DNA of 64,000 nt from Pristiophorus japonicus (lineage: Eukaryota): positions 44,454,001 through 44,518,000 of the forward strand of contig NC_091984.1 in the NCBI RefSeq assembly GCF_044704955.1. The letters run 5' to 3'. This document shows, one piece after another, positions 3,040 to 64,000 of this stretch (within the stretch, counting starts at the first letter, position 1; each line of letters begins with the position of its first letter). The notes below the pieces were generated by a model. The model did no database searches and was not told where the DNA came from. It saw only the letters and a list, made by a program, of their open reading frames with translations. The translations under genes were made by a program, and so were the position numbers.

Positions 3040-3620
3040 GGAACATAGGGACAGTAGCAGGCCATTCAGCCCCTCTAGCCTGATCGACCAATTAGATCAT
3101 CGCTGATCTGCATCTTAACTCCATATCCCTTGTTTAACTTTGTGAAGAAAATGGTTTAGCAGATTGTCAAAGTAAACCATTTTCCTCACCTGAGGTCAAG
3201 GGATATGGGACTGTTAGCTATGAGGAAAGATTGAACAGGCTGGGGTTGTTGCCCTTACAACAGAGGAGGCGGAGGGAAGATTTAATTGAGGTGTATAAAA
3301 TTGAGGGGCCTAGATAGAGTGGGAAGGAGAAGGGTCAATAACCAGGGGCATATATTTAAAGTAGTTGGTAGAAGTATTAGAGGGGAGATGAGGAAACATT
3401 TCTTCACCCAGAGGATGGTCAGAGTCTGGAACTCACTGCCTGAAAGGCAGAAGCCCTCATCACATTTAAATGGTACTTGGATGTGCACTTAAAGAACCGT
3501 AACTCTTTTCGACCGGCACAGACACAATGGGCCAAATGGCCTCCTCTGTAGCATAATTTTCTATGATTCAACAGGTAAATGGAGTTAAGATGCAGATCAG
3601 CCATGATCTAATTGAATATA
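3040..3620. mobile_element. Short CR1 3' fragments
   Basis: HFFTQRMVRVWNSLP-type ORF2 end and atgggccaaatggcctcc tail. Confidence 0.7.
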
Positions 3621-18200: not shown

Positions 18201-20559
18201 CTACCCCTTATAGCGATAAGCCAGGCAGAAATTTGTTTTTATGCGTTTGCCTCTATTACTCTCTACTAGATACTCACCGAGATTGCATGTAAATCGTTGT
18301 AACAGCCTCCATATTAGGGAAGTGTCTAACCCTAGTTCGCAGTCTACAGATTCAACCCCCTTAACAATTTCCAGTACTTTCAAGTATATTTTTCCCTTCC
18401 AACAGTTCCTATATCAGACCCTAACCCCATGATCCAGAAACTGTCTTTTTGACTTCTGCCTATTCAAAGGTTGTGTGATAATTACAGTAATCCACATTGT
18501 GGAATTTATGATTAAAAATAGTGCAATGCTATCAGTCTGATATCAAAAAACAGTACAAGCCTTTTACAAATAAAATAACCAAATATTTATTTCAAATTAA
18601 TGAATAATGAAACTTCAGAATTGTAATGAGTGCGTAGAAGCTTCATTAAAATTTTCTGATGGTCCAAAGATAAGCCATTCTGCTGGACAAAGTTTTTTTG
18701 ATAAAGAAAGGGAGACTTTGCTTGCATTACTTTAGCACTCCAGCACAACTTAGAGAACTCTTTGAAATAACCAAAGCTCAACTTTCTGTCTAATATTTTA
18801 GTTTTAGAGTTAAAATTCCAACTATACTTTAAGATTAGCATTTACAAACATAATTAACAATAAGCTTAGCTGATCTTCTTAAGCAGTCCCCCAGAGTTGA
18901 GGATGCTCAGCTGGAACATGACAGGGTTACATTTAAAGTTTAATTTGTTTTCATTGCCGGTGCTTTTAGTGTCCCCCTCCCCTTTTATAGGGGGCACTGG
19001 AAAAATTTGATTTTAGCGCCCCAAAAAAAAAACCAAAAACCAAAAAAAAAAGGGGCCTTGAAAATGTCTGCTGTGTCACCCAGGTCGGGTGGCATGGTTT
19101 TAATGTTTTATGTTTTTGCAGGTTAACTCAAAAGAGTTTCAGACAATTAACAATGCTTGATGCACCTCAAACATACCAACAATTTCCTATTTGGAGAAAA
19201 TATAAACTCAATCACAATCTCTATGGGTCAGGTCCAAAGTTTATCTCAAAAAGAAATATGCTGAATTACATTTTAAAAAGTCAGTAGAATTACAAAAGTC
19301 AGTAATATTTCAAAAGTTTTGTAACCTAATCGATGAAAAGATAATTTCTCAGTGCTACCGGGGCAAGGCTCCTGTTTGGATTTAAGGTGACACTTCATTA
19401 TTTTCAATATTCATCACATTTATGAATGTTTACCTTGTAATGCTTGACTGGAATTCAATCAAAAGGACAATACTGGATTTTTAAAAATTTGGCCTTTGGC
19501 TCTGAGAATTAGGGAAATGCTTTGCTTTATTCCACGATTTATATCCCCACCCTTCCCTATAAGAGGCAACCATGCCACAAAGGGGACTGCAACCCACAGT
19601 CCACCTTTTCTGGTGTGAAGAGAGACGACAAGGATATAGACAACACAAAAAAGACACTTTCTCCCGAAGGGAAGTGAAACTAAAGCAGTTGGTCAACCCA
19701 TATTGTAAGATCTCTGGGTTTGGAATCCCGACAAATATACATCAATGAATTAGACGAATTATTAACCCCCTTTGCCATAACACCTCACCAAGGAACCGTT
19801 TGGGGTTTAACTGTCCAGCTTAGGTCTAGGAACGAATGATGCCTTAATTTGGTTCACCGAATGTGTCATCCAGTTCAAATTGAATTTTGTTTATCTTACC
19901 AACCATCAATTAGAATGCCTGCAAGCTGGAGTGAATGAATTAACCCTTGCTTGCCAAATCAAAGAAATCAGACAATAAGTTGTGCATTAACAATTATTTA
20001 TTTACAAGATCTTAATTATCACTACTTAAATTTAAATACCGAGTTTATAAATAATTAAGTTATAAACAGGGTTACCTAGCAATTGGAAGAACACAATTAA
20101 TCGTTACTTTATGAATTAATAAGAGTTTGTAAAGGCAGCTCAGTGTATCACTGATTCAGCATTTAACTGGATTGCTGAATTTTAAATCATAGTTGAATTG
20201 TGTCTGAGACTACTGCAAATTGGTGAGATTAATTTAGGATTAACTACTTAGATAGCTAATGATTTAGCTCACTAAGATCATTGCAAAGCCAGCCTATTGA
20301 ATAGATTACAGTCTATATGTTGGTGATCGGCAATGTTTCCGGAGTTTCTACACCCATGTCCATATGAGCAGCGCGGTTGGGTTGATGTTCTTCCATCCCC
20401 TGGGATGCCAGTATTCGTTTCTGGAATATCAAGTTAATGTTGGCGAGGCTATCTGTTCCACTCGGATCCTCCATTCCACTTGACAAATGAGTAAGTGTAC
20501 ATAAGCGAACTGGCTTAACTCTCACCTTCCTTGATATCAGACAATTTGTACAATTAAGT

Positions 20560-20790
20560 AAAAACAGAAAATGCTGAAAATATTCAGGAGGTCAGGCAGC
20601 ATCTATGGAGAGAGAAACAGAGTTAACGTTTCAGGTCGGTGACCCTTCGTCAGAACTGGAAAAAGATGCAACAGGTTTTTAAGCAAGTGTAGCGGCAGGG
20701 AAAGGGGAGGGGGGGAAAGAACAAAAGGGAAGGTTTGTGATATGGTGGAAGGCATGAGAGATTAAGAGACAAAAAGGATGATGAGACAAA
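20560..20790 (-). ncRNA. Penelope-type terminal repeat with intact minimal hammerhead core (20621-20659)
   Basis: Minus strand reads CCAGTT-CTGACGA-AGGGTCACCGACCT-GAAAC-GTT-AACT. Confidence 0.75.
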
Positions 20791-26546: not shown

Positions 26547-27114
26547 CTATACAGAAAAGGGAATGAAACTAAGCATTTATTACACGACTCTACTTAAGTG
26601 AATACCAATGTAAAGAAATCTAAAGCCTATAACATTTTCTGTACATAAAACAGGAGTAAATAACTTCAACTATTTATTCCAGTTAAGTGCATACTTTTGT
26701 ATAGGTTATGCAATTTACCAGATTTATATTCAAATTTTAGTTACAAATTGCATAATTTCAGAGTATTTCAACAATACCCGAGTTAGAAAGTTGAAATATA
26801 AAACCATATAAAGTACTAATTCATAATGTCACAACAGGGAAGAGTTACAAATATCTGCATCAAACTGCCTCTGGAAATAAACAGGCTGAAGTCAAAGAGA
26901 TATATCTTTTTAAAAACATGAAACAAGCATTCAAAAGCATTTTTCCTTTTAAAAATCGTAAAAATGCTCATCCATTCTACATTTTTCAAAGCCAAGTATT
27001 TCATGTGGAAAACATTTTTAATTGAAGATATTTTGTTTTAAAATCTAAACAGCAACAGTTACACAAGTCAAGTGGGTTACTTATTTGAGGTCGAATTAGC
27101 AAGAGGATACTTAC

Positions 27115-27179
27115 CACAAAACACCATGCAGAGAGGCATTACTGGATAAATAAATCTGAATTCCTTGTGGCTTAAGAAA
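27115..27179 (-). CDS. PIGB: PIGB coding exon 9 ([21 protein letters not shown])
   Basis: 65 nt, ttacag / gtaagt; HKEFRF motif of GT22 mannosyltransferases. Confidence 0.96.
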
Positions 27180-27319
27180 CTGTAATAAAGAATATATATA
27201 TTTTTTAAATGTAGGTATTCAAGAGGTGATATTTGAAAGTATGCATGTGCATACCTGGTAATGCTATATGTCAGTGCATCAGCATGCTGTGCCACACATT
27301 TCCCCAAATATCAATACAA

Positions 27320-27672
27320 TAGCAAAATATTGCAGATGCTGGAATCTGAAATAAAAACAGAAAATGCTACAAATACTCAGCAGGTCAGGCAGTATCTGTG
27401 GAGAGAGAAACAGAGTTAACATTTCAGGTCGAGAGCCTTTCGCTAGTTCTAACAAAGGGTCATCGACCTGAAACATTAACTATTTATCTCTAATAAGAAC
27501 ATAAGAAATAGGAGCAGGAGTAGGCCATACGACCTCTCGAGCTTGCTCCGTCATTTAATACAATCATGCCTGATCCGATTATGGACTCAGGTCCACTTCC
27601 CTGCCCGCTCCCCATAACCCCTTATCGGATGCTGCCTGATCTGCTAAGTATTTCCAGCATTTTCTGTTTTTA
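27320..27672. mobile_element. Palindromic pair of Penelope-type termini interrupted by a CR1 tail (about 27495-27625, -)
   Basis: Minus copy 27320-27441 abuts plus copy 27442-27490, which resumes at 27627-27672. Confidence 0.7.
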
Positions 27673-28064
27673 TCCCCAAATGTCAATTTCTCCACAACAT
27701 CCAGATTGAGCGAGGCAGTGAGCGAAGGGGAAGAAGTAATCAACTCAACCACTCCTGTACCTCCTAGTGTCTGCTTCAAAGCAGAGAACTGCTTGCATGC
27801 CTGCTCTCACAGAATGATTATTCACTACAGTAGGTTACCCGTTATAACTACGTCTTAGTAGGTCAATTTAGCCACACAGTGCCCAATATATGGCTCCAGC
27901 ACCAGCCGAGTCATGATGCCCAATTGGGCTTTTGCCAGTGCCAAGAGCACACACTACCCAAATCATTTTATTTTCATAATGTGGGGGAGGGTGCAGGTGG
28001 TGAAGAAAGTGAAGGAACTTCTCCACTTTCACTACCCTGCAAAGGTAGAACTGTGTTTAAAACT

Positions 28065-29474: not shown

Positions 29475-29938
29475 ATTGGTTTGCAGCATCACATTAAGTG
29501 GTATATCTGTAAATAAACAGGATAAAAACAAATATTTTTTTGCATAGGGCAATAACTTATGAATGCCTATTTGTGAGATTATGCAGCTTCACCTACACAC
29601 AAATATTAAACTGGACAAAGAATTTCTCGGAAAAAGAATTCTATTGAACTTGCATTAACAACAGGCACCTTTAATACCTTCTTGTGGAGATCATATTGTG
29701 CTTCTCTTAGCTGTCAGAGTATTTCACAAAAGCAGCAACTCCACTGAAGGTGGTTACAGAAACAAAATCAGAGAGCAAGGAGGGAGTTATAAGGTTGAAT
29801 CTTAGCTCAGGACTGCAATATCTGTAAAACCTCAAGATTGAAATAGTTTCAAACCAATGATTAGGATTCTAGTCCTGCCTTCAATCCCAGATAGCTATTA
29901 GACTTTACACAGAGAGCCCTAATCTGAATGGTACACAC

Positions 29939-30150
29939 CTATACACCACGAGGGTCCACATCACCGCTATTAGTAAAACTCTGTACTTCCTGGGCACCAA
30001 CAGACATCCATGAATGAAGAAGGGCAAATGTGTTCCCATGATAACAGGAAATCCCTGAGTGAAGTACCAGTGCCACGAGTGTGCACCATAGAATGCTCCC
30101 ATGTTCTGAATCACGTTAAATCTGAGGAAATTCCATTGAACCATAACCCA
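29939..30150 (-). CDS. PIGB: PIGB coding exon 8 (WVMVQWNF...[10 protein letters not shown]...LVVY)
   Basis: 212 nt, tttcag / gtgtgt. Confidence 0.96.
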
Positions 30151-30806
30151 CTGAAAGAGTGAAAAAAGCAAAGCATGACAGGAACAAAATGTAAATTGGC
30201 ACCATATTCTGTTATGGCTGTTGTAAATGGAACAAGATAACAACATAGATATTATCAACAGGGGATAAAAGGCAAATATCTTAGGTAGCCCTACCCTAGA
30301 ATGTTTTCTTCAAAACTGGGGTACCATATTATGTACATTTCTGAATCCAAACAGCTTCATTGATTTTTTTTTTTTTAAAAAGATATATAAATGCTAGGAA
30401 AAGAAATGAGTGGTACAGAATCATCATTTTACATAGATACACAACTGAACAGTTAGCATTTATAAACGAATCAATGAAACTAATGGACAGTAATCCCTTC
30501 ACTAACTACCTTTATGCACTGGCAGCCAGATTAAGAGCACTACTTTGTTTGCTTTGTTGAAGCAGAAGACTTAGCAATTTGAGAGTGTTTTTTTAAAAAA
30601 ATAAAGCAAAAAATTATTTAATCTATAAAGCTGAAAATAACAGGCACCAGATCTATTAAAAATAAGATGCTCAACACATTACAATTTGCTCCAAAGTAGG
30701 CCAGGCCAGTGGCTTTATCGTAGGCTAGCCACACTACCATAGTTGTGTTACGCAGCTCAACAGTAGCTTTTGAAAGACCAATCAAAAATATGAAAAACCA
30801 CCCTAC

Positions 30807-35205: not shown

Positions 35206-35663
35206 ACCATTATGGTCTTCCATAATGACTAGCTTCCAGAACAGGAATCCCCAGTGTAAACAAATTGATTACAAGAATATTTGATCAGCAATAAACTTAG
35301 TTCAGTGTAATTCCCTTTGTATTTTTCTTATAAATTGATGCTTTTTTTGTATCTTCTATAAACCCTTCATTTTATCCTGTCCACAAAACATGCCCTTGAG
35401 GAAAGAGCATGCAGATGATATTTTCAATAGCAGTGGACAATAGCACTCTTTTTAAAAAAAAAGTTGGGAAGTGAATCCGCCTCCTATTTTCTCTAAGGAA
35501 AAGCACTCTGTTCAATAGGTTGGCATGAGAGTAGAGCTGAGATCAGGCTAATCTGTGTGGGACATTAGGAGCACAAATCTTGCATTCTATAACACAAACA
35601 TACTATGCTAAATTATACAATAGCATTTAAAAAGGGTTCAGAATAAGCAAACATTTTCCTGAC

Positions 35664-35794
35664 CTACTCCCAGTCTTTGTACCCTGAAAAGGGTAGTAAT
35701 AAAGTGTAAAGCTGGTTAGAACAGCTTCCATACTATTCGTAATAGTCCGGGTACTGCAATACCAGGTGAACCAGGAACACAGTTGGGAGAAATA
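35664..35794 (-). CDS. PIGB: PIGB coding exon 5 ([23 protein letters not shown]...)
   Basis: 131 nt, ttccag / gtcagg. Confidence 0.95.
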
Positions 35795-36757
35795 CTGGAA
35801 GAAGAAAATAAGAGATAGATTTAAAAAAAACTTTCATAAAATTTGTATGGATACGCAAGTTTACATAAAATAATTTTCTAAATACACAAAATACATTTTT
35901 TTTTTTTTTTTTTTATACAGTTAAGGGTTGCAAATCCCCTATTTTGGGGGTTTGGAGTTTTGAATGCACACCTTAGTGTTGCAATTTAATTCCCCATTAC
36001 GGTCATTAAATGGTGCCATCCATGCATCTGACACACAAAACAAACTTCGACATACACAGTTGTGAAATAAACAAAATGAAACAACAAAAGGATTCTTTTT
36101 ACCATAGTGTGGACTATGGAAACCAAGATATTTGGCCTTTTCTTCCCCCCATGCACCACTTTTGATTTCATAGCCCATTGCAACAAACACAATTCATGAC
36201 AGTAATTATGCTGTTAAGTAGAGAGCTTTCTACTATATCGAGACTGTAATCACCTTGTACAAAACATAGGTTCAATGGGCTCAAGTTTCAGGCTGCGCGA
36301 CCTGGACGCCCGTTTCTCGCGCCACAAAGTGTGCCTTAAAAAAACTTACCTATTCTCCGGCTCCTTGCAGGCCCTCTGGAGCTGGGCGCAGCGCAGCACA
36401 GCACGAGCTGTAGGGGGTGGAGCCAGGTCCCTGCGCTGAAAACAGTGCCGGGACCTCTGCACATGCGCGCTACAGTGGGCGCGCATGTGCAGTAGCTCCA
36501 GGCGCCCAAAACTGTGGGAGGGGCCCGAAGCACACAGCCCCTAGCCCTGGCCGAATGGCCTCTCTGGGGCTGCGTGAATAAGGCTCTTCCCACCCGACTG
36601 GACCCTCGCTCTCCCCCCCCCCCCCCACCCCCCGCGACCCGACCTCCACTTCCCCCCCCTCCAGCGACCCGACCTCCGCCCCCCCCCCCCGCGACTCTCT
36701 CTCTTCACACACCCCCGACCTCCGTGACTCTCTCTTCACCCCCCCCACCCACCCCGA

Positions 36758-36953
36758 NNNNNNNNNNNNNNNNNNNNNNNNNNNNNNNNNNNNNNNNNNN
36801 NNNNNNNNNNNNNNNNNNNNNNNNNNNNNNNNNNNNNNNNNNNNNNNNNNNNNNNNNNNNNNNNNNNNNNNNNNNNNNNNNNNNNNNNNNNNNNNNNNNN
36901 NNNNNNNNNNNNNNNNNNNNNNNNNNNNNNNNNNNNNNNNNNNNNNNNNNNNN
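36758..36953. other. Assembly gap (196 N)
   Basis: Run of n. Confidence 0.99.
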
Positions 36954-37927
36954 CCCCGAGACCTGACGCCACCTACCTGTAAATCCAGCCCGAAGTCCTT
37001 CTCTCCCTTCCTTACCTCCCTCCCTTCCTCCATCCCTCCCTCCCTCCATCCTCGCTCCCTTCTCCCCCTCTCCCTCTCCCTCCCTGCTTCCCCCCACCCC
37101 TCCCCTGACCCCCTCCACCCTCCCTCACCCCCCCTCACCTCCCTCCGCCTCCTCACTTCTCCCCCCCCCCATCCACCTCCCCCACCCGCACCGCTCCCCC
37201 CTCCCTTCACCACCTCCCCCCCACCACCTCACCAACCCCCCCCACCCCCCCTACCAACACCTCACCTCCCACCCCCCCCCACCCCTTCCCAACCCCCACC
37301 TCCCAACCCCCCACCTCCTCCTCCTCCCCCCACACCCTCCCCTCCCCCCCACCCACACCCACATCCCCCCTCCCACACCCACATCCCCCCTCCCCCACCA
37401 CCCACACCCCACCTCACCCCCCCACCCACACCCCCCCTCCCCCCACATCCACACCCCCCCTCCCCCCACATCCACACCCCCCCTCCCCCCACCCCCCCAC
37501 CCCCCACATCCACACCCCCCCTCCCCCACATCCACACCCCCCCTCCCCCCACCCCCCCACCCCCCACATCCCCCCCACCCCCCACCCACACCCCCCCCAC
37601 CCCCACACCCCCCCTCCCCCCACCCCCCACATCCACACCCCCACACCCCCCCCCACACCCACCCCTCCCCCACCCCCTCCCCTCCCCCCACACCCACCCC
37701 TCCCCCCACACCCCCCCTTCCCCCACCCCCCCCTCCCTCCCCCCACACCGACACCCCCCTCCCCTCCCCCCACACCCCCCCTCCCCCTCCCCCCACACCC
37801 CCCCCCCCTCCCCCCACACCCCCCTCCCCCTCCCCCCCACACCCCCCCTCCCCCTCCCCCCACACCCCCCCTCCCCTCCCCCCACACCACCCTCCCCTCC
37901 CCCACACCCCCCCCTCCCCTCCCCCAC

Positions 37928-38127
37928 NNNNNNNNNNNNNNNNNNNNNNNNNNNNNNNNNNNNNNNNNNNNNNNNNNNNNNNNNNNNNNNNNNNNNNNNN
38001 NNNNNNNNNNNNNNNNNNNNNNNNNNNNNNNNNNNNNNNNNNNNNNNNNNNNNNNNNNNNNNNNNNNNNNNNNNNNNNNNNNNNNNNNNNNNNNNNNNNN
38101 NNNNNNNNNNNNNNNNNNNNNNNNNNN
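37928..38127. other. Assembly gap (200 N)
   Basis: Run of n. Confidence 0.99.
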
Positions 38128-39035
38128 CCCCTTCCCCCACGCCCCAACACCACCCCTCCCCCCACGCCCCAACACCACCCCTCCCCCCACGCCCCAACAC
38201 CACCCCTCCCCCCACGCCCCAACACCACCCCTCCCCCCACGCCCCAACACCAGGATTTCCCCTCCCCCACGCCCCAACACCATGAGAGTCCCCTCCCCCA
38301 CGCCCCAACACCACCCCTCCCCCCACGCCCCAACACCACCCCTCCCCCCACGCCCCAACACCACCCCTCCCCCCACGCCCCAACACCACCCCTCCCCCCA
38401 CGCCCCAACACCACCCCTCCCCCCACGCCCCAACACCACCCCTCCCCCCACACCCCAACACCACCCCTCCCCCCACACCCCAACACCACCCCTCCCCCCA
38501 CACCCCAACACCACCCCTCCCCCCCACACCCCAACACCACCCCTCCCCCCACACCCCAACACCACCCCTCCCCCCACACCCCAACACCACCCCTCCCCCC
38601 ACACCCCAACACCACCCTCCCCCCACACCCCAACACCACCCCTCCCCCCACACCCCAACACCACCCCTCCCCCCACACCCCAACACCACCCCTCCCCCCA
38701 CACCCCAACACCACCCCTCTTCCCACACCCCAACACCACCCCTCCCCCCACACCCCAACACCACCCCTCCCCCACACCCCAACACCACCCCTCCCCCCAC
38801 ACCCCAACACCACCCCTCCCCCCCACACCCCAACACCACCCCTCCCCCCCACACCCCAACACCACCTCCCCCCCCCCACACCCCAACACCACCCCTCCCC
38901 CCACACCCCAACACCACCCCTCCCCCCACACCCCAACACCACCCCTCCCCCCCACACCCCAACACCACCTCCCCCCCCCACACCCCAACACCACCTCCCC
39001 CCCCCCCCCACACCCCAACACCACCTCCCCCCCCC
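38128..39035. repeat. 25-bp minisatellite (R-CCCCAACACCACCCCTCCCCCCAC), about 35 units
   Basis: Period 25 read directly (e.g. units start at 38141, 38166, 38191); preceded by low-complexity C-rich DNA 36600-37927. Confidence 0.95.
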
Positions 39036-53772: not shown

Positions 53773-55789
53773 TTGAGAATGTTAAGGTTGTATTAAATAT
53801 TTCTTTTAAAAATAAACAAAATCGTCTGTCTGTCTGCTTTAAGCAACGTGATTGATTGATCAAGTACCATGTGACCACCAAAATGTAAGCTCTGATTGGG
53901 CATGACCAGTTTTCTGATTAATCCCTACTAAGCAAGTGCTGAGCAACAATCTGATACAAGATACAGTATATATAAGCCACCATCGTGTCCCACAGCTGGT
54001 CCCTCCACTTCACAACTCCTCGATCCTTCATACCCAGCAGCAACATCAGACATTCTAAGAGTCATTTGGTCCACTCTGCTCCTCAACTTGCCAAGGCCCT
54101 GCTTCTCTTCCCTAATTGCTTACATCAAACCTTTGGTAATCGAAGAAGTTAAATAATGTAAAATATATTTGGTCAAAAAAATACCCTGAGGGTTCTTTTG
54201 TTTATCTGGATGTCCCAGATGTCAGGGGATAATTGGATTGGGGTGCACATACATAATTTAGTCCACATTTTAAAGACATATATTCTATCCTTATTTTTAC
54301 ATAATACTTTGAGTTTATATTATTATTTATAGTTAAATAGTCAAGCTTACATCAATTTGGGAAGCAGAGAAGTAGGTAGAGATGGTTGGAGTATAGAAGT
54401 TTCTTTGCAATACAGACTGAGGATCTGGAAGATGTAAAACTGAGGCATACCAGCACTTCCACTGGCAGGAGGATGTAATTATAATGTTACAAGTTTACCC
54501 AGACAGTTACCATTATAAGAACATAAGAAATAGGAACAGGAGTAGGCCATATGGCCCCTCGAGCCTGCTCCACCATTCAATAAGATCATGGCCGATCTGA
54601 TCATGGCCTCAGCTCCACCTCCCTGCCGACGACGAAAAGGAGCCTGGCGAGGCCCTCATTGGATAGCCACACCATCCACGGATTCTAAATGTTCACATTG
54701 GAACTTGTAATGGAAGTTCATGCTGATGTAAGATTTTAAAAATATTACAGGTGTGTGTGTCAGGTTCTTCCTTCCCAATTTTAACTGAGACAAGCTTCCA
54801 GCAGGAGCCAGGCACTTCCTTACAAAGTGTGTCACATTTCTCTCTCTAGTGCAGTGCATTGTGGTCAATGGAAAATAGATGAGAAGTTTTACGTGCCAAC
54901 TAACTTAGACACAGATGACTAAAATTGTACTTTACAAAATCAATCTATTAGAGATCGTGTTTAGGTTTAGATGTGAATAAGTGACACTAACGTTTCCTTT
55001 ACAATATTGCAATACATTCTGGTAGACAAATCTAGCTGTCCCGAAATCTTTCCACACTTCATGCAATTTGCAATTAGTTTTAGCAACCCAATCAACAAAT
55101 TAGATACATAGTATCAGGCCATATTTGAGAACTGGTTATAGCAACCGCAAAGGTTTTCTTATCTTCCGTTCTGTAATTAAAAGAAAACCTTCATTCATAT
55201 TTACATTGTACCATCTTCTAATTTTTAATATTTTTCCCCGTCCCTAATTAGATGCTGCTGACTATTTTCTGACCAAAGTGGGGTGGGCACAGGAATTGCT
55301 AATAGACATCTGTAGATATCAAACATTAAGAAAGAGCACAAACGCATATGCCAGGTTGACTTCCTCTTCAATCCCCAGATTGGTTTGAAATATGTAATTC
55401 ACTGCATGCAGAACTACAGCTGCAAACATGTAAACCATCACTCCATAAGCTTTTTTTTCTGCAGGATAGAGAAGAATATAAAAGAAAATTAAAAAGTTGT
55501 ATTTCAAGAAGTAATTTCAGGAACTCCCAGCCTTTTGAAGACAACATTATTTTAAAGCAAATATTATTACATTAGGTCTCCACGTTCAGTAGCACATAAC
55601 TATCCCATATATCCCAATTCCATCTCACTCTACTGTCACGAATAGACAAAAATGCAGCTTGATCAGGCATAAAAGTTATACTTGATCTGTGATGTCCAAA
55701 AGATTGGCACATCTGTGAATTACAATAGGCTGATCGAAAAGTTACAATTTTTTTTATGTGCATGTACAATTTGAAAACTTAAAGGATAT
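53773..55789 (-). other. PIGB: U12-type (minor spliceosome) intron 2 of PIGB with AT-AA termini
   Basis: 5' ATATCCTTT; 3' CCTTAAC-ATTCTC-AA; no in-frame GT-AG alternative at the homologous junction. Confidence 0.9.
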
Positions 55790-56990
55790 TTGAAGACCAT
55801 GTTGTGTGCAACTTCGAGTGACTGCCAATACTCATCAGGAACAAAGCTCGTCTGGACTAGAATGCAGTTCACCATCCTCAAAGCTACAGTAAACATAATT
55901 AAATAGGTGTTTGGACCCAATAGACCTGGATTAAAAAAAACAGAAAAATTACAATTACAATATCATTATAGAAGTAGCAAAATATTTTGGTGGATCCAAA
56001 TATCAGCTGTGTTTTTCTGAGGAAGGCGGTGTCACATTAGACATTTTTCATGGAGTAAATATTACGCCTTAGGAAAAAATAATCTTATAATCGTTAATGA
56101 GTACTTCTATAGAAAAATTCTATCCAATGAAGCATTTTCCACAAAAAATTCTGGACGATTCAATTTTTATTCTTAAAGAAAATCTTGTTCGATGATTAAA
56201 TATTATGATTGCTAAGCATTCACTGCTAGATAATTAACATTTTCTTGCTCTCCACTATATTCAAAAAGGAGTTAGATGTAGTCCTTACTACTAGGGTGAT
56301 CAAGGGGTATGGCAAGAAAGCAGGAATGGGGTACTGAGGTTGCATGTTCAGCCATGAACTCATTGAATGGCGGTGCAGGCTCGAAGGGCCGAATGGCCTA
56401 CTCCTGCACTTATTTTCTATGTTTCTAAGTCCCGTATACTATCTCAGCATCTAATCAGTGGAGAGAACACACTGGGGTGAATTAGGGAATTTACTTGGTC
56501 TATCGGAATCCTGTTATTAGCAACAGCATGATTTAGTCAAATTCTGGAACAACCATAAACCATTTTTGAAAACTTGTGTCTGCCAACTTTTTACTCAATT
56601 TTATTTCAAGTGGAATAACACCCTTGCGTATCTTCCCAAGCTCATAGAATCATACAGTACAGAAGAATGCCAGTTGACCCATCATGCCTGTGCCAGCTCT
56701 TTGAAAGAGCTATTCAATTAGTCACACTCCCCTGCTGCTCATTCTCCATAGCCCTGCATTTTTTTCTTTTCAAGTATATATCCAGTTCCTTTTTGAAAGT
56801 TACTATTGAATCCGCTTCCACCACTCTTTCAGGCAGTGCATTCCAGATCATAAAAACTCACTGCATAAAAGTATTTCTCGTCTTCCTCTTGGTTCTTTTG
56901 CCAATTATCTTAAATCGATATCTTCTGGTTATCGACCCGCCAATGGAAACAGTTTCTCCCTATTTACTCCATCAAAACCCTTCAGAACAC
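54517..56990. mobile_element. Three isolated CR1 tails (54517-54628 -, 56250-56427 +, 56645-56990 -)
   Basis: CR1 terminal hairpin and short repeat motifs; the interval also contains PIGB exon 2. Confidence 0.7.
55790..55925 (-). CDS. PIGB: PIGB coding exon 2 (LLGPNTYL...[21 protein letters not shown])
   Basis: 136 nt, ccag acceptor; PDEYWQSLE motif of the GT22 family; followed by U12 donor ATATCCTTT. Confidence 0.96.
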
Positions 56991-57229
56991 AGTTTTGCCC
57001 AGAAATGTATAGTGTACAGTAGCGGTTGGAAAGCATTTTTTGTGTGGGTGATCCCCTGCAAATATTGATACACATCCAGGGATCCGCTCACTTAACTTCT
57101 GAAAGGCAGTGCCAGCTACCCAAAGAAAAACAATGCCATCACTGCACAAAACATTTACTCACACACAGTAACAGAACTAATGTGCTAGTAATTGAAATAC
57201 AGTATGTATTGACAGGATAGTACCCTAGT

Positions 57230-57620
57230 GAGAGTTAGTGATGAGGAGTCTTCAATTTAAAATTGTCATAGAGAAAAGAGTTTGGGAGAAATCTCTTTAT
57301 ACAGGTGATTATTGGAGAATGGAATGCTTTGTCACATAAATTGGTTGAGGCATCTTTTATGCTGAAAATGAATAAATATTTGAGACATAGTAAGATACAA
57401 GGCAATGGGGAGAGTGTTTTGGAATAAAAGCAGAAAATGTTGGAAACACTCAGCAGGTCAGTCATCGTCTATGGAGAGATAGAGACAGTGTTAACGTTTT
57501 AGGTCGATGACCTTTCATTGGGTCAGATCAGACCAGATTAGTTTTGGATTGCTCTAAGAGCCAACACAGACGCAATGGGCCGAACGGCCTCCTAGGCTGA
57601 CCTCTGGGATCCTGCGATCC
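57230..57620. mobile_element. Decayed CR1 tail (+) interrupted by a Penelope-type fragment (57424-57520, -)
   Basis: CR1 tail motif atgggccgaacggcctcc; insert gttaacgttttaggtcgatgacctttcat. Confidence 0.6.
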
Positions 57621-57978
57621 ATTGGAAAAACCACTCCAGCTGATCGGAAGAGGTGGATAGGATTGGCTGGCTTATGCTACGGAACTATTAGCCAACAAAA
57701 ACCTTCCCGGTCCAGAGGATGCATTAAGCTCATTCAATTCAGATCAAAGTGTAGCTCTGCTTCAAATACTACTACCGCATTTGGAACTATATGCAACGCT
57801 TTAGACTCTTGCACATGATACTATCCAACGAGTTGGCAGCTGGGAAAGATTCCCCCACAACAGGTCTCTTCCAAGGGCTTTTATGAACAGAACGCAACCA
57901 ATTGCGATGTCATTTTGCAAAAGAGCAGCGGCGAGACGAGGACAGATTAAAGTCCTCGGCTACCCATCCTGCCTGTAC

Positions 57979-58102
57979 CTGCGCCCCGCTCCGAGTCGGA
58001 GGGCTCTTTGCTGTACAGCGTCGATTTTCTCTTTCTCAACCGGACCGTTTCGGCAGCCGCGGAACGCCTGCCCCGAAAGAGACTGCGCCTGAGTTTCTCC
58101 AT
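57979..58102 (-). CDS. PIGB: PIGB coding exon 1 (MEKLRRSLF...RLRKRKSTLY...ERGA)
   Basis: ATG at 58102, 124 nt, phase-1 donor G|gtacag; LRKRKSTLY motif as in human PIGB; CpG-rich. Confidence 0.88.
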
Positions 58103-58109
58103 GCTGTAC

Positions 58110-58300
58110 ACTATACTTGTGCTGGGGGGTTCGGGGGCGGGGCGGGCTCAGCGCTCCATCCACTGCCTCCTCGGCCAGCTTCCTCTCCCGTGACGTCAAC
58201 GTCCCCGCGCCCCCGCCCTGCGGATCGTGCGCGCCACCACGCGGACTCGGCGCGCGCCCGTGTTCATGCTGACTCGGGGCCGGCTCGCGAGCCCGAGCGT
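58110..58300 (-). promoter_or_regulatory. PIGB CpG-island promoter / 5' UTR
   Basis: GC boxes (GGGGCGGGGCGGG ~58134-58146, CCCCGCCC ~58211), palindromic CRE TGACGTCA 58191-58198, high CpG density. Confidence 0.7.
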
Positions 58301-58310
58301 CCACTTTTTC

Positions 58311-58400
58311 CCAGTTCTGACGAAGGGTCATCGACCTGAAACGTTGACTCTGTTGCTCTCTCCACAGAAGCTGAGTATTTCCGGCATTTTCTGTTTTTAT
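58311..58400 (+). ncRNA. Penelope-type terminal repeat fragment with intact minimal type I hammerhead ribozyme core
   Basis: AGTT-CTGACGA-AGGGTCATCGACCT-GAAAC-GTT-GACT: conserved CUGANGA and GAAA boxes, stem II, palindromic stem III, 4-bp stem I. Confidence 0.75.
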
Positions 58401-58599
58401 ATTAGCTCGCTTCCACTGGCTGGTGACTCCCTCCCCAGAAGGGGAGGCTGGTTGCCAGGGGGGACCTTATCTCTCTCCACCCCCTATTATAATCACACAC
58501 GGCCTCTTGCTCCCCCTCCCCCAAGTATACAAGTGTGAGAATTTTCGGTTAACGTTCGCTCTCGCTGGTTTTAAATAAATACTGCCGACGCGCTCTTCT

Positions 58600-58873
58600 G
58601 CCTAGAAAGACTACAACTCCCGTGATGCCGTTTTATTTGGAACGCATGCGCAAGCGCGTCGGGGGCGTGGTCGCCCTTTCGCTGATTGGCATTTTGGGCA
58701 GTCGGCGGGCGAGTGCACTGTCGTTCCAAAGCAGCGTGTGGCCGCCTCCACAACCAATCAGAACAGCAGGAAGAGGGGAGGGAGAACAAGTCTGGCAGCC
58801 AAGTTAGGATGAGTGCACAGCGCCTGGAGCAAGGAAGGCTGCATCTTGTGAGCTAGCCCAGCTCAGGGTAAGC
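58600..58873 (+). promoter_or_regulatory. Second promoter module and putative plus-strand first exon of a divergent gene
   Basis: ACTACAACTCCC-GTGATGC (ZNF143/THAP11 type) 58610-58628, NRF1 CGCATGCGCA 58643-58652, CCAAT boxes at 58685 and 58754, donor CAGG|GTAAGC at 58867/58868. Confidence 0.6.
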
Positions 58874-58934
58874 ATTCTACTTTTACCCGAGGCATTCATC
58901 TAATGGAAGTTTAAGCAACAAGTGTAACTGCAAT

Positions 58935-59225
58935 TAGCAGAGAGGTCAATAACCAGGGAGGGGAGGGATAGATTTAAAGTAATTGGTAGAAGGATTGGAG
59001 GGGAGTTGAGGAGAACATTTTTCACCCAGAGGGTGGTGAGGGTCTGGAACTCACTGAACGCATTTAAAAAGTGCTTGGATTATGCACTTGAAGTGGTGTA
59101 ACCTACAGGGTTATGGGCCAAGATCTGAAAAATGGGATTAGGCTGGATAGCCCTTTTTCGGCTGGCACAGGCACGATGGGTCGAATAGCCTCCTTCTCTG
59201 TCATAAATTTCTATGATTCTATGAA
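58935..59225 (+). mobile_element. CR1 3' tail
   Basis: ttttcacccagagggtggtg...ttctatgattctatga. Confidence 0.8.
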
Positions 59226-60569
59226 TTTCTTTTCCTAATCCATCAATTTATGAGCGAATTAATGAGCCGCACGGATTCAAAGTTTAACTTTTAGTCTGAA
59301 ATGAAAATGATTTATCAATGAATGTTTAGTCTGAATTTTAATCTAGGTCTTTTTGTTCTAAATGGAAAAAAAGCTTCATTTGAGACCCTGAAGAAGCATC
59401 TGAATGTTTTATTTATTAATGAGTGAAAATCTGTTTTCGGATAAAGTACAGAAATACATTCTTCAACAACAAAATCGTTTTATTTTTGATTAAAACTCTA
59501 CAGCTTTGGTTAATGATGCCTGCAACTGCCTTAGATATTGGATTATTCTCACATTCTCGTTGACTATCGAACTTTTACCTCTACCCCCCCACCCCCCCCT
59601 GCCACAAACATTACTCCCACCCCCACCCTCACCTTCACCCTCACCCAAGGTCATTTTCAGATCCATTTAATGTTGACAGTGCTCCAGGATTTTAGATTGC
59701 TGTTGATAGCCTAGCTGAGCAATTCCAGCCTGCCTTTTTAATGAAAGTTGAAAATGCTGGAAATACACAGCAGGTCTGGTAGAATCTGAAAATGGAAAAA
59801 TCTGAATCTAAACCCCTTTTTTGCCAGATTTCAAAACTAGAAGATAAGCAAATGGGACTGAAAAAATGAGTGGGAGTAGAGAAATGGTAAAAAACAAGAA
59901 GTGGAAGTGTTAAGTACTGTCACACAGAAACAATTAATGCATTTAATAGCCAGTTTAAAAAAAAATTATGATCATTCAACAAGTCATGCAGCATCTGTGG
60001 AGGGAGAAATAAAGTTAATGTTTCAGGTCAATAACTTTTCATCTGTTTCATTAAGTTAGTGGGACGTAGTATTGTATAGGTGAGTTGGAGTTTGTGGTGT
60101 GGAGCTCGAGGCATATGAAATAAGCTGTGCTTAGAGCTAACAAAGCATGGATGAGAGTTTCAGTAATGCTGGGGATGAAGTAGGGACCGAGGCACTCAAT
60201 GTTATGCAAGTGAAACTAGGTAGTTTTGATGATGGATAGTATGATGGGTTTGAAGTTAGGTTTAGACTGAATAAGGACACCAAAGTTGTGAACTGTCATG
60301 GAGTGGATGGAAATGGGGGCTAGGATGCAGAGTTTCTGGTAGGATCAATCAATCAATCAATTTTGATAAATCTACATAATGTTGACAACAGCTTGCCGAA
60401 TCCCCCATCATCAACATCCTGGGGGTGACCATTGACCAGAAACTTAATTGGACCAGCCACATAAATACTGTGGCAACAAGAGCTGGTCAGAGGTTGGGTA
60501 TTCTGTGGTGAGTGTCTCACCTCCTGACTCCCAAAGCCATTCCACCATCTACAAGGCACAAGTCAGGAA

Positions 60570-61532
60570 TAGAAACAAAGAAAATAGGTACAGGAGTAGG
60601 CCATTTGGCCCTTCGAGCCTGCACCACCATTCAATAAGATCATGGCTGATCATTCCCTCAGTATTCCTTTCCTGCTTTCTCTCCACACCACTTGATCCCC
60701 TTAGCCGTAAGGGCCATATCTAACTCCCTCTTGAATATATCCAATGAACTGACATCAACAACTCTCTGCGGCAGGGAATTCCACAGGTTAACAACTCTCT
60801 GAGTGAAGAAGTTTCTCCTCATCTCAGTCCTAAATGGCCTACCTCTTATTCTAAGACTGTGTTCCCTGGTTCTGGACTTCCCCCAACATCAGAAACGTTC
60901 TACCTGCATCTAACCTGTCCTGTCCCGTCAGAATTTTATGTTTCTATGGGATCCCCTCTCATTCCTTTAAACTCCAATGTATAAAGGCCCAGTTGATCCA
61001 GTCTCTCATATGTCAGTCCTGCCATCCCGGGAATCAGTCTGGTGAACCTTTGCTGCACTTCCTCAATAGCAAGAACGTCCTTCCTTAGAATAGGAGACCA
61101 AAACTGAACACTATTCCAGGTGAGGCCTCACCAAGGCCCTGTACAACTGCAGTAAGACCTAAATGCTCCTATACTCAAATCCTCGAGCTATGAAGGCCAA
61201 CATACCATTTGCCGCCTTCACCGCCTGCTGTACCTGTATGCCAACTTTCAATGACTGATGAACCATGACACCCAGGTCTCGTTGCACCTCCCCTTTTCCT
61301 AATCTGCTGCAATTCAGATAATATTGTGTCTTCGTGTTTTTGCCCCAAAGTGGATAACCTCACATTTATCCACATTATACTGCATCTGCCATGCATTTGC
61401 CCACTCACCTAACCTGTCCAATCACCCTGCAGCCTCCTAGCATCCCCCTCACAACTCTCACCGCCACCCAGTTTAGTGTCATCTGCAAACTTGAAGATAT
61501 TACACTCAATTCCTTCATCCAAATCATTGATG
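60570..61532 (-). mobile_element. CR1 3' fragment adjoining a second-family LINE piece (60390-60570, +)
   Basis: Reverse-complement RT C-terminus and tail. Confidence 0.85.
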
Positions 61533-64000
61533 TATATCGTAATAAGGTGGATGAATTAACTGTGCAAATAGATGTTGACAGATATGATGTGATTGGGATT
61601 ACAGAGTCGTGGCTCCAGGATGATCAGGGCTGGGAACTCAACATCCAAGGGTATTCAACATTCAGAAAGGATAGACTAAAAGGAAAAGGAGGTGGGTTAA
61701 AGAGGAGATTAATGCAATAGTTAGGAAGGACATTAGCTTGCATGATGTGAAATCTATATGGGTAGAACTGCAGAACACCAAAGGGCAAAAAACGTTAGTG
61801 GGATTTGTGTACAGACCTCCAAACAGTAGTAGTGATGTTGGGGAGGGCATCAAACAGGAAATTAGGGGTGCATGCAATAAAGGTGCAGCAGTTATCATGG
61901 GTGACTTTAAAGCATATAGATTGGGTTAACCAAACTAGAAGCAATACGGTGGAGGAGGATTTCCTGGAGTGCATAAGGGATGGTTTTCTAGACCAATATG
62001 TCGAGGAACCAACTAGGGGTGAGGCCATCTTAGACTGGGTGTTGTGTAATGAGAGAGGATTAATTAGCAACCTTGGGGAAGAGCGACCATAATATGGTGG
62101 AATTCTACATTAGAATGGAGAATGAAACAGTTAATTCAGAGACCATGGTCCAGAACTTAAAGAAGACTAACTTTGAAGGTATGAGGCGTGAATTGGCTAG
62201 GATAGATTGGCAAATGATACTTAAGGGGTTGACAGTGGATGGGCAATGGCAGACATTTAGAGACCGCATGGATGAACTACAACAATTGTACATCCCGGTC
62301 TGGCGTAAAAATAAAAAAGGGAAGGTGGCTCAACCGTGGCTATCAAGGGAAATCAGGGATAGTATTAAAGCCAAGGAAGTGGCATACAAATGGGCCAGAA
62401 ATAGCAGCAAACCCGGGGACTGGGAGAAATTTAGAACTCAGCAGAGGAGGACAAAGGGTTTGATTAGGGCAGTACGAGAAGAAGCTTGCAGGGAACATTA
62501 AGACGAACTGCAAAAGCTTCTATAGATATGTAAAGAGAAAAAGGTTAGTAAAGACAAATGTAAGTCCCCTGCAGTCAGAATCAGAGGAAGTCATAACGGG
62601 GAACAAAGAAATGGCAGACCAATTGAACAAGTACTTTGTGTCCTCCTTAGTGAATACTGAACCAAACAACCTTCCGGATATAAAAGGGGTCAGAGGGTCT
62701 AGTAAGAAGAAAGAACTGAGGGAAATCCTTATTAGTCAGGAAATTGCGTTGGGGAAGTTGATGGAATTGAAGGCCGATAAATCCCCAGGGCCTGATGGTC
62801 TGCATCCCAGAGTACTTAAGGAGGTGGTCTTAGAAATAGCGGATGCATTGACAGTCATTTTCCAACATTCCATAGACTCTGGATCTATTCCTATGGAGTG
62901 GAAGGTAGCCAATGTAACCTCACTTTTTAAAAAAGGAGGGAGAGAGAAAACAGGGAATTATAGACCAGTCAGCCTGACATCGGTAGTGGGTAAAATGATG
63001 GAATCAATTATTAAGGATGTCATAGCAGCACATTTGGAAAGAGGTGACATGATAGGTCCAAGTCAGCATGGATTTGTGAAAGGGAAATCATGCTTGACAA
63101 ATCTTCTGGAATTTTTTGAAGATGTTTCCAGTAGAGTGGACAAGGGAGAACCAGTTGATGTGGTGTATTTGGACTTTCAGAAGGCTTTCGACAAGGTCCC
63201 ACACAAGAGATTAAAGTGCAAAGTTAAAGCACATGGGATTGGGGGTAGTGTGCTGACGTGGATTGAGAACTGGTTGGCAGACAGGAAGCAAAGAGTAGGA
63301 GTAAATGGGTACTTTTCAGAATGGCAGGCAGTGACTAGTGGGGTACCGCAAGGTTCTGTGCTGGGGCCCCAGCTGTTTACATTGTACATTAATGATTTAG
63401 ACGAGGGGATTAAATGTAGTATCTCCAAATTTGCGGATGACACTAAGTTGGGTGGCAGTGTGAGCTGCGAGGAGGATGCTATGAAGCTGCAGAGTGACTT
63501 GGATAGGTTAGGTGAGTGGGCAAATGCATGGCAGATGAAGTATAATGTGGATAAATGTGAGGTTATCCACTTTGGTGGTAAAAACAGAGAGACAGACTAT
63601 TATCTGAATGGTGACAGATTAGGAAAAGGGGAGGTGCAACGAGACCTGGGTGTCATGGTACATCAGTCATTGAAGGTTGGCATGCAGGTACAGTAGGCGG
63701 TTAAGAAAGCAAATGGCATGTTGGCCTTCATAGCGAGGGGATTTGAGTACAAGGGCAGGGAGGTGTTACTACAGTTGTACAGGGCCTTGGTGAGGCCACA
63801 CCTGGAGTATTGTGTACAGTTTTGATCTCCTAACTTGAGGAAGGACATTCTTGCTATTGAGGGAGTGCAGCGAAGGTTCACCAGAATGATTCCCGGGATG
63901 GCGTGACTGACATCAAGAAAGACTGGATCAACTGGGCTTGTATTCACTGGAGTTCAGAAGAATGAGAGGGGATCTCATAGAAACATTTAAAATTCTGACG
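61533..64000 (+). mobile_element. CR1 ORF2 (APE + RT) running off the window
   Basis: 361-aa RT ORF 62611-63696 ended by a CAG>TAG change; very similar to copy D. Confidence 0.92.

What the first reader, a model, noticed from the sequence alone, without database searches (positions are those of the whole stretch)
58311..58350. Intact hammerhead ribozyme core embedded in the PIGB bidirectional promoter
Seen: AGTT(58313-16)-CTGACGA(58317-23)-stem II AGGGTC/GACCT-GAAA(58338-41)-C-GTT/GACT lies between the PIGB GC-box module and the ZNF143/NRF1 module, on the strand opposite PIGB. The core and its CpGs are preserved while the adjacent repeat tail has a deletion. Known: Penelope-type minimal hammerheads with palindromic AACGUU stem III cleave as dimers. 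Inference: it could cut divergent or antisense promoter transcripts, in trans with any of the many genomic copies, which would be an exapted ribozyme system at promoters. A simpler explanation is CpG-island protection from methylation decay.
Basis: partly seen in the sequence, partly recalled or inferred. Interest (0 to 1): 0.7.

Follow-up and report, generated by a model that had tools for sequence, protein, structure and literature searches.

The report
Penelope ribozyme relic in shark promoter
This is a real hammerhead-ribozyme motif, but it is the 100-base end piece of a jumping gene found thousands of times in this genome, lying between two head-to-head genes, and its one private change in the motif is predicted to misfold it, so it is likely an ordinary relic rather than a promoter switch.

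Summary
The motif is real: 58313-58349 (+) fits a minimal hammerhead descriptor (2 hits in the window, 0 in 300 shuffles). It is part of a 97-base, 5'-truncated end (58305-58401) of an abundant Penelope-like retroelement whose parent encodes RT and GIY-YIG. The same 33-base core occurs exactly 813 times in the genome. It lies in a CpG island between PIGB (minus) and a DUF4149 gene (plus), both spliced in RNA-like contigs. Nothing singles the ribozyme out for selection: core 1/37 versus tail 3/50 changes (p=0.63); the tail deletion recurs in 91 places; intact cores are not enriched at CpG islands (1 of 30 versus 3 of 30). The only core change, G58346, sits next to the cut site in a column invariant in 46 of 46 other copies and is predicted to drop stem II from 0.99 to 0.04-0.18. 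The copy lacks the element's upstream sequence and a same-strand partner. RNA covers both edges in 2 of 3 runs, strand unknown. Other sharks and cleavage could not be tested. The scan has reported this family before, in this and other genomes. Verdict: ordinary relic, likely kept CpG-rich by the island.

The parts
58305..58401 (+). 5'-truncated terminal (pLTR) piece of a Penelope-like retroelement, 97 bases; begins about 7 bases before hammerhead stem I and lacks the upstream element sequence
   Evidence: profile hit 58305-58401; 7 bases of upstream match; parent element
58313..58349 (+). Minimal type I hammerhead motif: stem I 58313-16/58346-49, core CTGACGA 58317-23, unpaired A58324, stem II 58325-29/58333-37, GAAA 58338-41, palindromic stem III region 58340-45, predicted cut after 58345
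   Evidence: sequence; descriptor and shuffles
58346..58346 (+). Private A-to-G change: turns the stem I pair next to the cut site into U-G and is predicted to favour an alternative helix that removes stem II
   Evidence: A in 46 of 46 other gap-free copies; stem II probability 0.04-0.18 as is, 0.99 with the family letter
58350..58401 (+). Rest of the repeat: changes at 58355, 58369 and 58383 and a 12-nt deletion between two GCTG repeats near 58370-58373; G58383 makes a new CpG and an ETS-like site (motif label recalled) at 58377-58384
58297..58305 (+). Possible left copy of a decayed target-site duplication (8 of 9 letters match 58409-58417); weak
   Evidence: 247 of 5000 random pairs from the island score as well
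58409..58417 (+). Possible right copy of the decayed target-site duplication; weak
57751..58750 (.). CpG island (GC 0.56-0.61, CpG o/e 0.94-1.0; window-wide o/e 0.33)
57979..58102 (-). PIGB first coding exon (ATG at 58102-58100, donor GT at 57978-57977), spliced to the exon that starts at 55925
   Evidence: ORF; loose end of spliced contigs in X5 and X6 found at 55894-55923; PF03901 in the next exon
58134..58198 (.). PIGB-proximal promoter module: GC box at 58134, CRE at 58191 (labels recalled)
   Evidence: motif scan; X7 contig ends at 58168
58610..58760 (.). Bidirectional promoter module: ACTACAnnTCCC (ZNF143-associated) at 58610, NRF1-like at 58643, CCAAT at 58684 and 58754
   Evidence: motif scan; motif class as in PMC3082894 (passages)
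58769..58867 (+). First exon of the plus-strand DUF4149 gene (TMEM205-like; name recalled); donor GT at 58868; next exon lies 3.3 kb past the window end
   Evidence: spliced contigs in X5 and X6; exon 2 at L031:3315; PF13664 exon at G000:C8:44525226-44525408, E 5.7e-7
20558..20665 (-). Another copy of the family in the window with the full descriptor, Watson-Crick stem I and all three CpGs, outside any promoter: internal control

Best explanation
The motif is the inherited minimal hammerhead in a 97-base end piece of a high-copy Penelope-like retroelement that lies in the PIGB/DUF4149 CpG island, and it is likely a neutral relic that is predicted not to cut. Shown: the repeat identity, the RT plus GIY-YIG parent, the copy number, the two spliced flanking genes, and equal preservation of core and tail. 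Inferred: a short reverse transcript of the element's end was inserted into the open promoter; the unmethylated island spared its CpGs; one later A-to-G change next to the cut site lets the 3' strand pair with the 5' strand of stem II, so the catalytic fold is not formed. The copy has none of the element's upstream sequence, so it is transcribed only as a passenger of host leaders, in part probably antisense within a long PIGB leader.
For: Exact 29-nt core at 1142 places and 33-nt core at 813, reversed controls 0; exact tail 32-mer at 3122; 7 family hits in 540 kb of position-sampled DNA and 31 in 524 kb around the window. Upstream of longer copies lie RT and GIY-YIG frames ending about 250 bases before the motif; relatives carry RVT_1, PF26215 and GIY-YIG at 41-65% identity. 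Core 1/37 versus tail 3/50 changes, Fisher p 0.63 (script count 1/31 versus 2/49 at non-CpG sites, p 1). Same deletion junction at 91 places. Flank CpG o/e highest of 81 copies; a new CpG arose in the tail too. Full descriptor also in 5 of 21 tail-selected, 2 of 14 nearby, 1 of 3 random and 1 of 17 endonuclease-selected copies that cover the core. 1 of 30 exact-core copies within 1 kb of a CpG-island-like window versus 3 of 30 tail-selected. G58346: stem II 0.04-0.18 versus 0.99. No plus-strand copy with a core between 27491 and about 88900. Papers: single motifs showed no cleavage and dimers little (PMC4209133, parts 1-2 of 4 read); the anole element's ribozyme cut only with the element's protein, and no RNA-seq ends were found at its cut site (PMC11167929, passages).
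Against: The copy is well preserved: the 7 of 30 comparison copies that are as close to the majority all come from the endonuclease-selected set, and 0 of the 13 position-sampled copies are (1 of 13 by the hand count of 4 changes); the majority sequence was, however, built from copies chosen for likeness to this one. All 11 catalytic letters and the three CpGs are kept. RNA-like contigs cover both edges of the insert in X5 and X6, and family core 31-mers are deep in all three runs (280-700 for the commonest), so partners may exist in trans. 4 of 30 exact-core copies have a stem II probability as low, so misfolding by context is not unique to this copy, and nearest-neighbour folding ignores tertiary contacts and proteins. 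With only 87 sites the core-versus-tail test has little power.
Confidence: 0.85

Rival explanations
1. The insertion does not cut but has a passive cis effect: read antisense inside a long PIGB leader it adds two upstream ATGs (58387, 19-codon frame, A at -3; 58331, out of frame and running over the PIGB start), and its tail has gained an ETS-like site, so it would tune PIGB translation or promoter strength.
For: Upstream ATGs and motif. In X6 low-depth contigs run 58126-58521 and stop about 90 bases short of the ZNF143-type site, which fits a minus-strand start driven by that module; contigs in X5 and X6 cross the proximal module without a break. ETS/GABPA sites are enriched in bidirectional promoters (PMC3082894, passages).
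Against: Strand unknown; X7 shows PIGB-side cover only up to 58168; two host-derived upstream ATGs (58267, 58159) lie in the same leader; the CCGG variant also occurs in other copies (L006, L014, L017, L018, L030 among the 29 shown). No conservation data.
Confidence: 0.09
2. One reading: the motif is an exapted, active ribozyme that cuts plus-strand promoter RNA by pairing in trans with other family transcripts, perhaps only when the element's protein is present.
For: Catalytic letters intact; active dimer can be drawn without pseudoknots and the U-G pair does not raise its energy (-10.5 versus -9.7 kcal/mol); X5 has one spliced plus-gene contig reaching left to 58371; family k-mers are abundant in the RNA-like runs; domesticated hammerheads exist in amniotes (PMC7761336, passages).
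Against: No excess conservation of core over tail; no promoter enrichment of intact cores; predicted misfold from the private change; active dimer 8.5 kcal/mol above two folded monomers in the 40-nt form (same for family-type copies); no cis partner; one X6 contig with this copy's own letters crosses the cut site (58325-58400, only 21 letters on the left, below the tool's 31-letter bridging rule, strand unknown).
Confidence: 0.04
3. The copy was harmful because it could cut a long plus-strand leader of the DUF4149 gene, and G58346 was selected because it switches the ribozyme off.
For: The single core change falls on a column invariant in 46 of 46 other copies and has a large predicted effect on the fold.
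Against: One substitution cannot show selection; three of the four substitutions in the copy go to G, as expected from drift in a GC-rich island (inference); family-type monomers are already predicted to be self-inhibited (core-sequestering pair 0.97-1.0).
Confidence: 0.02

Closest known systems
Minimal hammerheads (min-HHR) of metazoan Penelope-like elements, Cervera and De la Pena 2014 (PMC4209133; parts 1-2 of 4 read)
   Same: Type I layout, short helix I (4 bp), unpaired base between positions 9 and 10.1, no helix III loop with palindromic 15.2-16.2, thousands of dispersed single copies from truncated elements
   Different: Helix II is 5 bp with a 3-nt loop; 10.1-11.1 is G-U rather than G-C; this copy has a U-G pair next to the cut; sharks are not mentioned in the parts read
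Endonuclease-positive Penelope-like elements of the Neptune/Nematis type (bioRxiv 10.1101/2021.04.23.441226, passages)
   Same: [quoted passage not shown]
   Different: Clade not placed by a tree here; this copy has no coding part, no inverted partner and no 30-40-base tail extension
PAc (Poseidon) element of Anolis (PMC11167929, passages)
   Same: Vertebrate Penelope-like element with a pLTR hammerhead of stems I and II
   Different: Tested there: cuts only with the element's protein, not needed for insertion; here nothing is tested and the copy is a fragment
Domesticated vertebrate hammerheads (mammalian 3'-UTR and amniote intronic ribozymes; PMC7761336, passages)
   Same: Retroelement-derived hammerhead at a host gene
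   Different: Those are highly conserved between species; this is one of many near-identical dispersed copies with no sign of selection on the core and no helix III of its own
Non-LTR retrozymes (bioRxiv 10.64898/2026.07.22.740005, passages)
   Same: Non-autonomous hammerhead-bearing sequence derived from Penelope-like elements; reported there in the one cartilaginous fish sampled
   Different: Defined there as tandem repeats; this is a solitary truncated end piece

Membership tests
Minimal hammerhead of metazoan Penelope-like elements | Catalytic boxes CUGANGA, GAAA and UH in type I order | tested here: met
Minimal hammerhead of metazoan Penelope-like elements | Helix I of 4-5 pairs and a helix II closed by the boxes | tested here: met
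   4 pairs (one U-G) and 5 pairs on paper; stem II is predicted not to form in the native flanks
Minimal hammerhead of metazoan Penelope-like elements | Unpaired base between 9 and 10.1; palindromic 15.2-16.2 | tested here: met
   A58324; C58342-G58343 inside AACGTT
Minimal hammerhead of metazoan Penelope-like elements | G10.1-C11.1 pair (typical according to the paper, not part of its descriptor) | tested here: not met
   G-U here; family: 18 G-U, 17 G-C, 10 A-U, 1 unpaired of 46 gap-free copies
Minimal hammerhead of metazoan Penelope-like elements | Lies in the terminal repeat of a Penelope-like element | tested here: met
   Same 100-base unit follows RT/GIY-YIG frames in L176-L181 and in 17 of 17 endonuclease-selected loci
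Minimal hammerhead of metazoan Penelope-like elements | Self-cleavage as a dimer | not testable with these tools
   Only folding energies
Rfam hammerhead families | Match to a covariance model | tested here: not met
   No hammerhead family among 8 matches up to E 10 in 56000-61000
Endonuclease-positive Penelope-like element (parent family) | RT followed by a C-terminal GIY-YIG domain in one frame | tested here: met
   Weak Pfam hits on decayed copies (RVT_1 E 0.0075; GIY-YIG E 0.0002, 0.032, 0.18; none over the cut-off; 0 hits for 7 shorter frames); 600 relatives at E<=1e-20, most listed ones with RVT_1 and PF26215, some with GIY-YIG
Endonuclease-positive Penelope-like element (parent family) | CX2-5CxxC motif before GIY-YIG (Neptune/Nematis) | tested here: met
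   CX4CxxC in L176, L178, L181
Endonuclease-positive Penelope-like element (parent family) | 5' truncation and inverted truncated copies | tested here: met
   Upstream homology from 0 to 1500 bases; 8 of 30 exact-core copies start within 20 bases of stem I; inverted pairs in L012, L029 and window 27350-27491
Endonuclease-positive Penelope-like element (parent family) | Placement in the Neptune clade by an RT tree | not tested
   No named reference set was fetched
Domesticated (exapted) vertebrate hammerhead | Conserved at the orthologous site across species | not testable with these tools
   No related genome held; all 7 listed runs are of one organism
Domesticated (exapted) vertebrate hammerhead | Core preserved beyond neighbouring repeat sequence | tested here: not met
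   1/37 versus 3/50, p 0.63; low power
Domesticated (exapted) vertebrate hammerhead | Transcribed in the sense direction in a host RNA | tested here: inconclusive
   RNA-like contigs cover both edges in 2 of 3 runs; contigs give no strand
Non-LTR retrozyme | Tandem head-to-tail units with hammerheads | tested here: not met
   Single copy; the three nearest family hits (57518, 59788, 60043) are on the other strand

The most novel reading that the evidence does not exclude
The promoter copy is a protein-gated ribozyme switch: its private G58346 keeps it folded off, and when the Penelope protein or family RNA is abundant (germline, stress) it is refolded and cuts long plus-strand leaders of the DUF4149 gene, so that one side of a bidirectional promoter senses retroelement activity.
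Probability: 0.04. Interest if true: 0.65.

Novelty: new member of a known kind. Interest (0 to 1): 0.12.

Why it matters
As read here it matters little: one more truncated Penelope end with its known minimal hammerhead. It is a clean example of how a CpG island makes a repeat look 'conserved', and of why an intact core needs the family as control: 813 places carry the same 33 letters. If the switch reading were true it would be a first case of a Penelope minimal hammerhead put to host use at a promoter and would give these motifs, whose role in cells the cited review calls unknown, a testable function. Searches for such a case listed none by title or abstract start; most subscription journals and one key paper (PMC5785218) were not available, so this is no proof of absence.

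Tried and rejected
Rfam scan: no hammerhead model matched. CTGANGA count alone: chance level. Fold z-scores of the monomer: -0.27 to 0.12 and -0.58 for three cuts, no unusual stability. Cross-species test: no related genome is held and the run search listed one organism only, with no holder on record as RNA; look-ups of earlier notes by sequence, by relatives and by gene names returned nothing. Strand and RNA ends: only assembled contigs are available, so neither can be read; gaps in cover (X6 58009-58125 and 58522-58768, X7 right of 58168) prove nothing. The guess that the plus gene is PIGBOS1 or RAB27A (human arrangement, recalled) failed: no true motif hit in 524 kb and the only PIGBOS1 match lies on another contig. 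Pfam found nothing in 7 short decayed frames of the parent; the protein atlas was unavailable. Dimer energies do not separate this copy from family-type copies in the 40-nt form. A target-site duplication is only borderline. The bacterial promoter scan does not apply. Rows dropped before counts: L001 and L025 from the training set; L133 and L135 as near-duplicates; copies that do not cover the core (15 of 29 nearby, 4 of 7 random, 7 of 28 tail-selected); copies with gaps in the 37-nt motif. Lunse et al. on dimer cleavage was not held and is known here only through its citation in PMC6765202 and PMC7761336. Supplements of the papers (motif alignments, descriptor) were not opened and may include shark examples.

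Full report
Observation. On the plus strand, 58313-58349 reads as a minimal type I hammerhead: stem I (4 pairs), CUGACGA, one unpaired A, stem II of 5 pairs with a 3-base loop, GAAA, CG, UU with the predicted cut after 58345, and the 3' strand of stem I. The box CTGANGA alone is at chance level (33 found, 36.9 expected), but a full descriptor hits twice in the window and in 0 of 300 dinucleotide shuffles. Rfam has no hammerhead match here.

What it is part of. The motif lies in a 97-base repeat piece, 58305-58401. The window holds ten profile hits of the family, among them 20665-20558 on the minus strand, which has the full descriptor with a Watson-Crick stem I. In the genome (5.92 Gb) the 29-letter core occurs exactly 1142 times, the 33-letter form 813 times and a 32-letter tail motif 3122 times; reversed controls give 0. 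Position-sampled DNA gave 7 hits in 540 kb, which extrapolates to roughly 77,000 copies (Poisson range about 31,000-158,000; my arithmetic); the 524 kb around the window hold 31. Longer copies share upstream sequence for up to 1500 bases. [quoted passage not shown] Pfam hits on these decayed frames are weak, but the 541-residue frame has 600 relatives at E<=1e-20, most of the 120 listed with RVT_1 and PF26215, some with GIY-YIG, including shark and ray proteins at 57-63% identity. The endonuclease part has 34,094 first-look candidates in the genome. This is an endonuclease-positive Penelope-like element, with the linker motif described for Neptune and Nematis (passages). That the host is a shark is inferred from these relatives. 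The promoter copy matches the element for only 7 bases before stem I; 8 of 30 exact-core copies are as short within 20 bases. Earlier notes of the scan read such short copies as run-off copies of the element's RNA start; I checked only the boundary, not the mechanism.

The setting. The copy sits in a CpG island (o/e 0.94-1.0 against 0.33 for the window). PIGB runs on the minus strand (PF03901 exons at window 55786-55902, 35639-35890, 29929-30282, 26960-27223). Three unlabelled runs of the same organism behave like RNA: contigs in X5 and X6 leave the genome at the donor 57978 and continue in the next PIGB exon, and at the donor 58868, from where the X5 contig continues in an exon 3.3 kb past the window end. 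That gene has a DUF4149 exon (E 5.7e-7); the name TMEM205-like is recalled. So the promoter is bidirectional. A GC box and CRE lie at 58134-58198, and ACTACAACTCCC, an NRF1-like site and two CCAAT boxes at 58610-58760 (motif class as in PMC3082894). RNA-like contigs cross the left and right edges of the insert in X5 (57977-58335; 58371-58867) and X6 (58126-58311; 58325-58400; 58371-58521), not in X7 (57995-58168). The DNA run breaks at the same place, so the break at the core comes from the repeat. Contigs give no strand. The X6 cover ends at 58521, which fits a minus-strand start from the ZNF143-type module and would put the motif antisense in a long PIGB leader; the X5 contig allows a long plus-strand leader as well.

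Is the core specially kept? Against the family majority this copy has four substitutions (58346, 58355, 58369, 58383) and a 12-base deletion between two GCTG repeats. Core 1 of 37, tail 3 of 50: p 0.63. The deletion junction occurs at 91 places, so it is a recurrent event or a small subfamily. The copy keeps 3 of 3 core CpGs, where nearby copies keep 12 of 41, but it also gained a CpG in the tail, its flanks have the highest CpG o/e of 81 copies, and retention rises with flank o/e (rho 0.36, p 0.008, n 54). The full descriptor is met by 9 of 55 other copies that were chosen without regard to the core and cover it. If intact cores served promoters they should gather at CpG islands: 1 of the first 30 of 813 exact-core copies lies within 1 kb of an island-like window, against 3 of 30 tail-selected copies. 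Against my reading: the copy is among the best preserved. The 7 of 30 comparison copies as close to the majority all come from the endonuclease-selected set, none from the 13 position-sampled ones; but the majority was built from copies picked for likeness to this one, and the preservation is even across core and tail, which suits a younger insertion or a protected island as well as selection.

Would it cut? The one change in the motif is A to G at 58346, the stem I partner next to the cut site. That column is A in 46 of 46 other gap-free copies. With G the 3' strand can pair with the 5' strand of stem II: in three native contexts of 101-396 bases stem II has probability 0.04-0.18 and the alternative helix 0.78-0.90; with the family letter stem II has 0.99. 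Family-type monomers are themselves predicted to bury the catalytic box (0.97-1.0), and the active dimer lies 8.5-8.7 kcal/mol above two folded monomers for all copies tried. These are secondary-structure models without tertiary contacts or proteins, and 4 of 30 exact-core copies score as low for stem II. No plus-strand copy with a core lies between 27491 and about 88900, so a partner must come in trans; family core words are abundant in the RNA-like runs. In print, single minimal motifs did not cut and dimers cut poorly (PMC4209133); the anole element's motif cut only with the element's protein and left no ends in RNA-seq (PMC11167929). At family level the 10.1-11.1 pair varies as G-U, G-C and A-U (18, 17, 10 of 46), which suggests that the fold mattered to the active elements, not to this copy.

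Mechanism and odds. Most likely (0.85): a short copy of the element's end was inserted into the open promoter, the island spared its CpGs, drift added four changes and a deletion, and one change is predicted to misfold the ribozyme; it is transcribed only as a passenger. Rivals: a passive effect through two upstream ATGs in a long PIGB leader or a new ETS-like site (0.09); an exapted, trans-acting or protein-gated ribozyme (0.04); selection for the disarming change (0.02).

Novelty. The motif class, its place in Penelope terminal repeats and its mass dispersal are described (PMC4209133; PMC6765202 and PMC7761336, passages). The scan itself has noted this shark family many times: 11 notes hold the search words, in at least 4 genomes, and 4 notes in this genome, one of them beside another promoter. 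Verdict: new member of a known kind, interest 0.12.

Noticed in passing
window 58769-58867 (+), L031:3315 onward, G000:C8:44525226-44525408; L131:1501-1638: The head-to-head partner of PIGB here is a DUF4149 (TMEM205-like, recalled) gene. The only PIGBOS1 match lies on a separate contig (C1973), whereas in human PIGBOS1 is the neighbour of PIGB (recalled).
   Followed up: partly
window 20558-20665 (-): Family copy with the full descriptor, Watson-Crick stem I and all three CpGs, on the PIGB strand about 6 kb past the last Pfam-matched PIGB exon; a better cleavage candidate than the promoter copy if it lies inside the pre-mRNA (not checked).
   Followed up: partly
window 27350-27491 and 27626-27673: Inverted, overlapping pair of family ends plus a further tail piece, just beside a PIGB exon: the fold-back insertion pattern of Penelope-like elements.
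   Followed up: no
window 58387 and 58331 (-): The insert supplies two upstream ATGs to any PIGB leader that starts right of it: a 19-codon frame, and an out-of-frame one that runs over the PIGB start codon.
   Followed up: partly
G000:C8:44254001-44778000 versus 54 position-sampled 10-kb stretches: Family density is uneven: 59 hits per Mb around the window (10 within the window itself) against 13 per Mb in the sampled stretches; exact-core copies also crowd near contig ends in the listings.
   Followed up: no
family alignment, columns 58325 and 58337: Subfamilies differ at the pair that closes stem II next to the core: G-U, G-C or A-U in 45 of 46 copies.
   Followed up: partly
L132-L135 (G000:C1:0.8-3.1 Mb): Two pairs of near-identical copies with shared flanks, likely segmental duplicates, of a distinct subfamily.
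   Followed up: no
window about 61500-64000 (+): Long decayed LINE of CR1/L2 type (label recalled, by eye; similar frames in L182) in the first intron of the DUF4149 gene.
   Followed up: no
window 37001-39000: Extremely C-rich, G-poor stretch (GC skew -0.98 and -0.95) around the two runs of N at 36758-36953 and 37928-38127; probably a simple repeat inside a PIGB intron.
   Followed up: no
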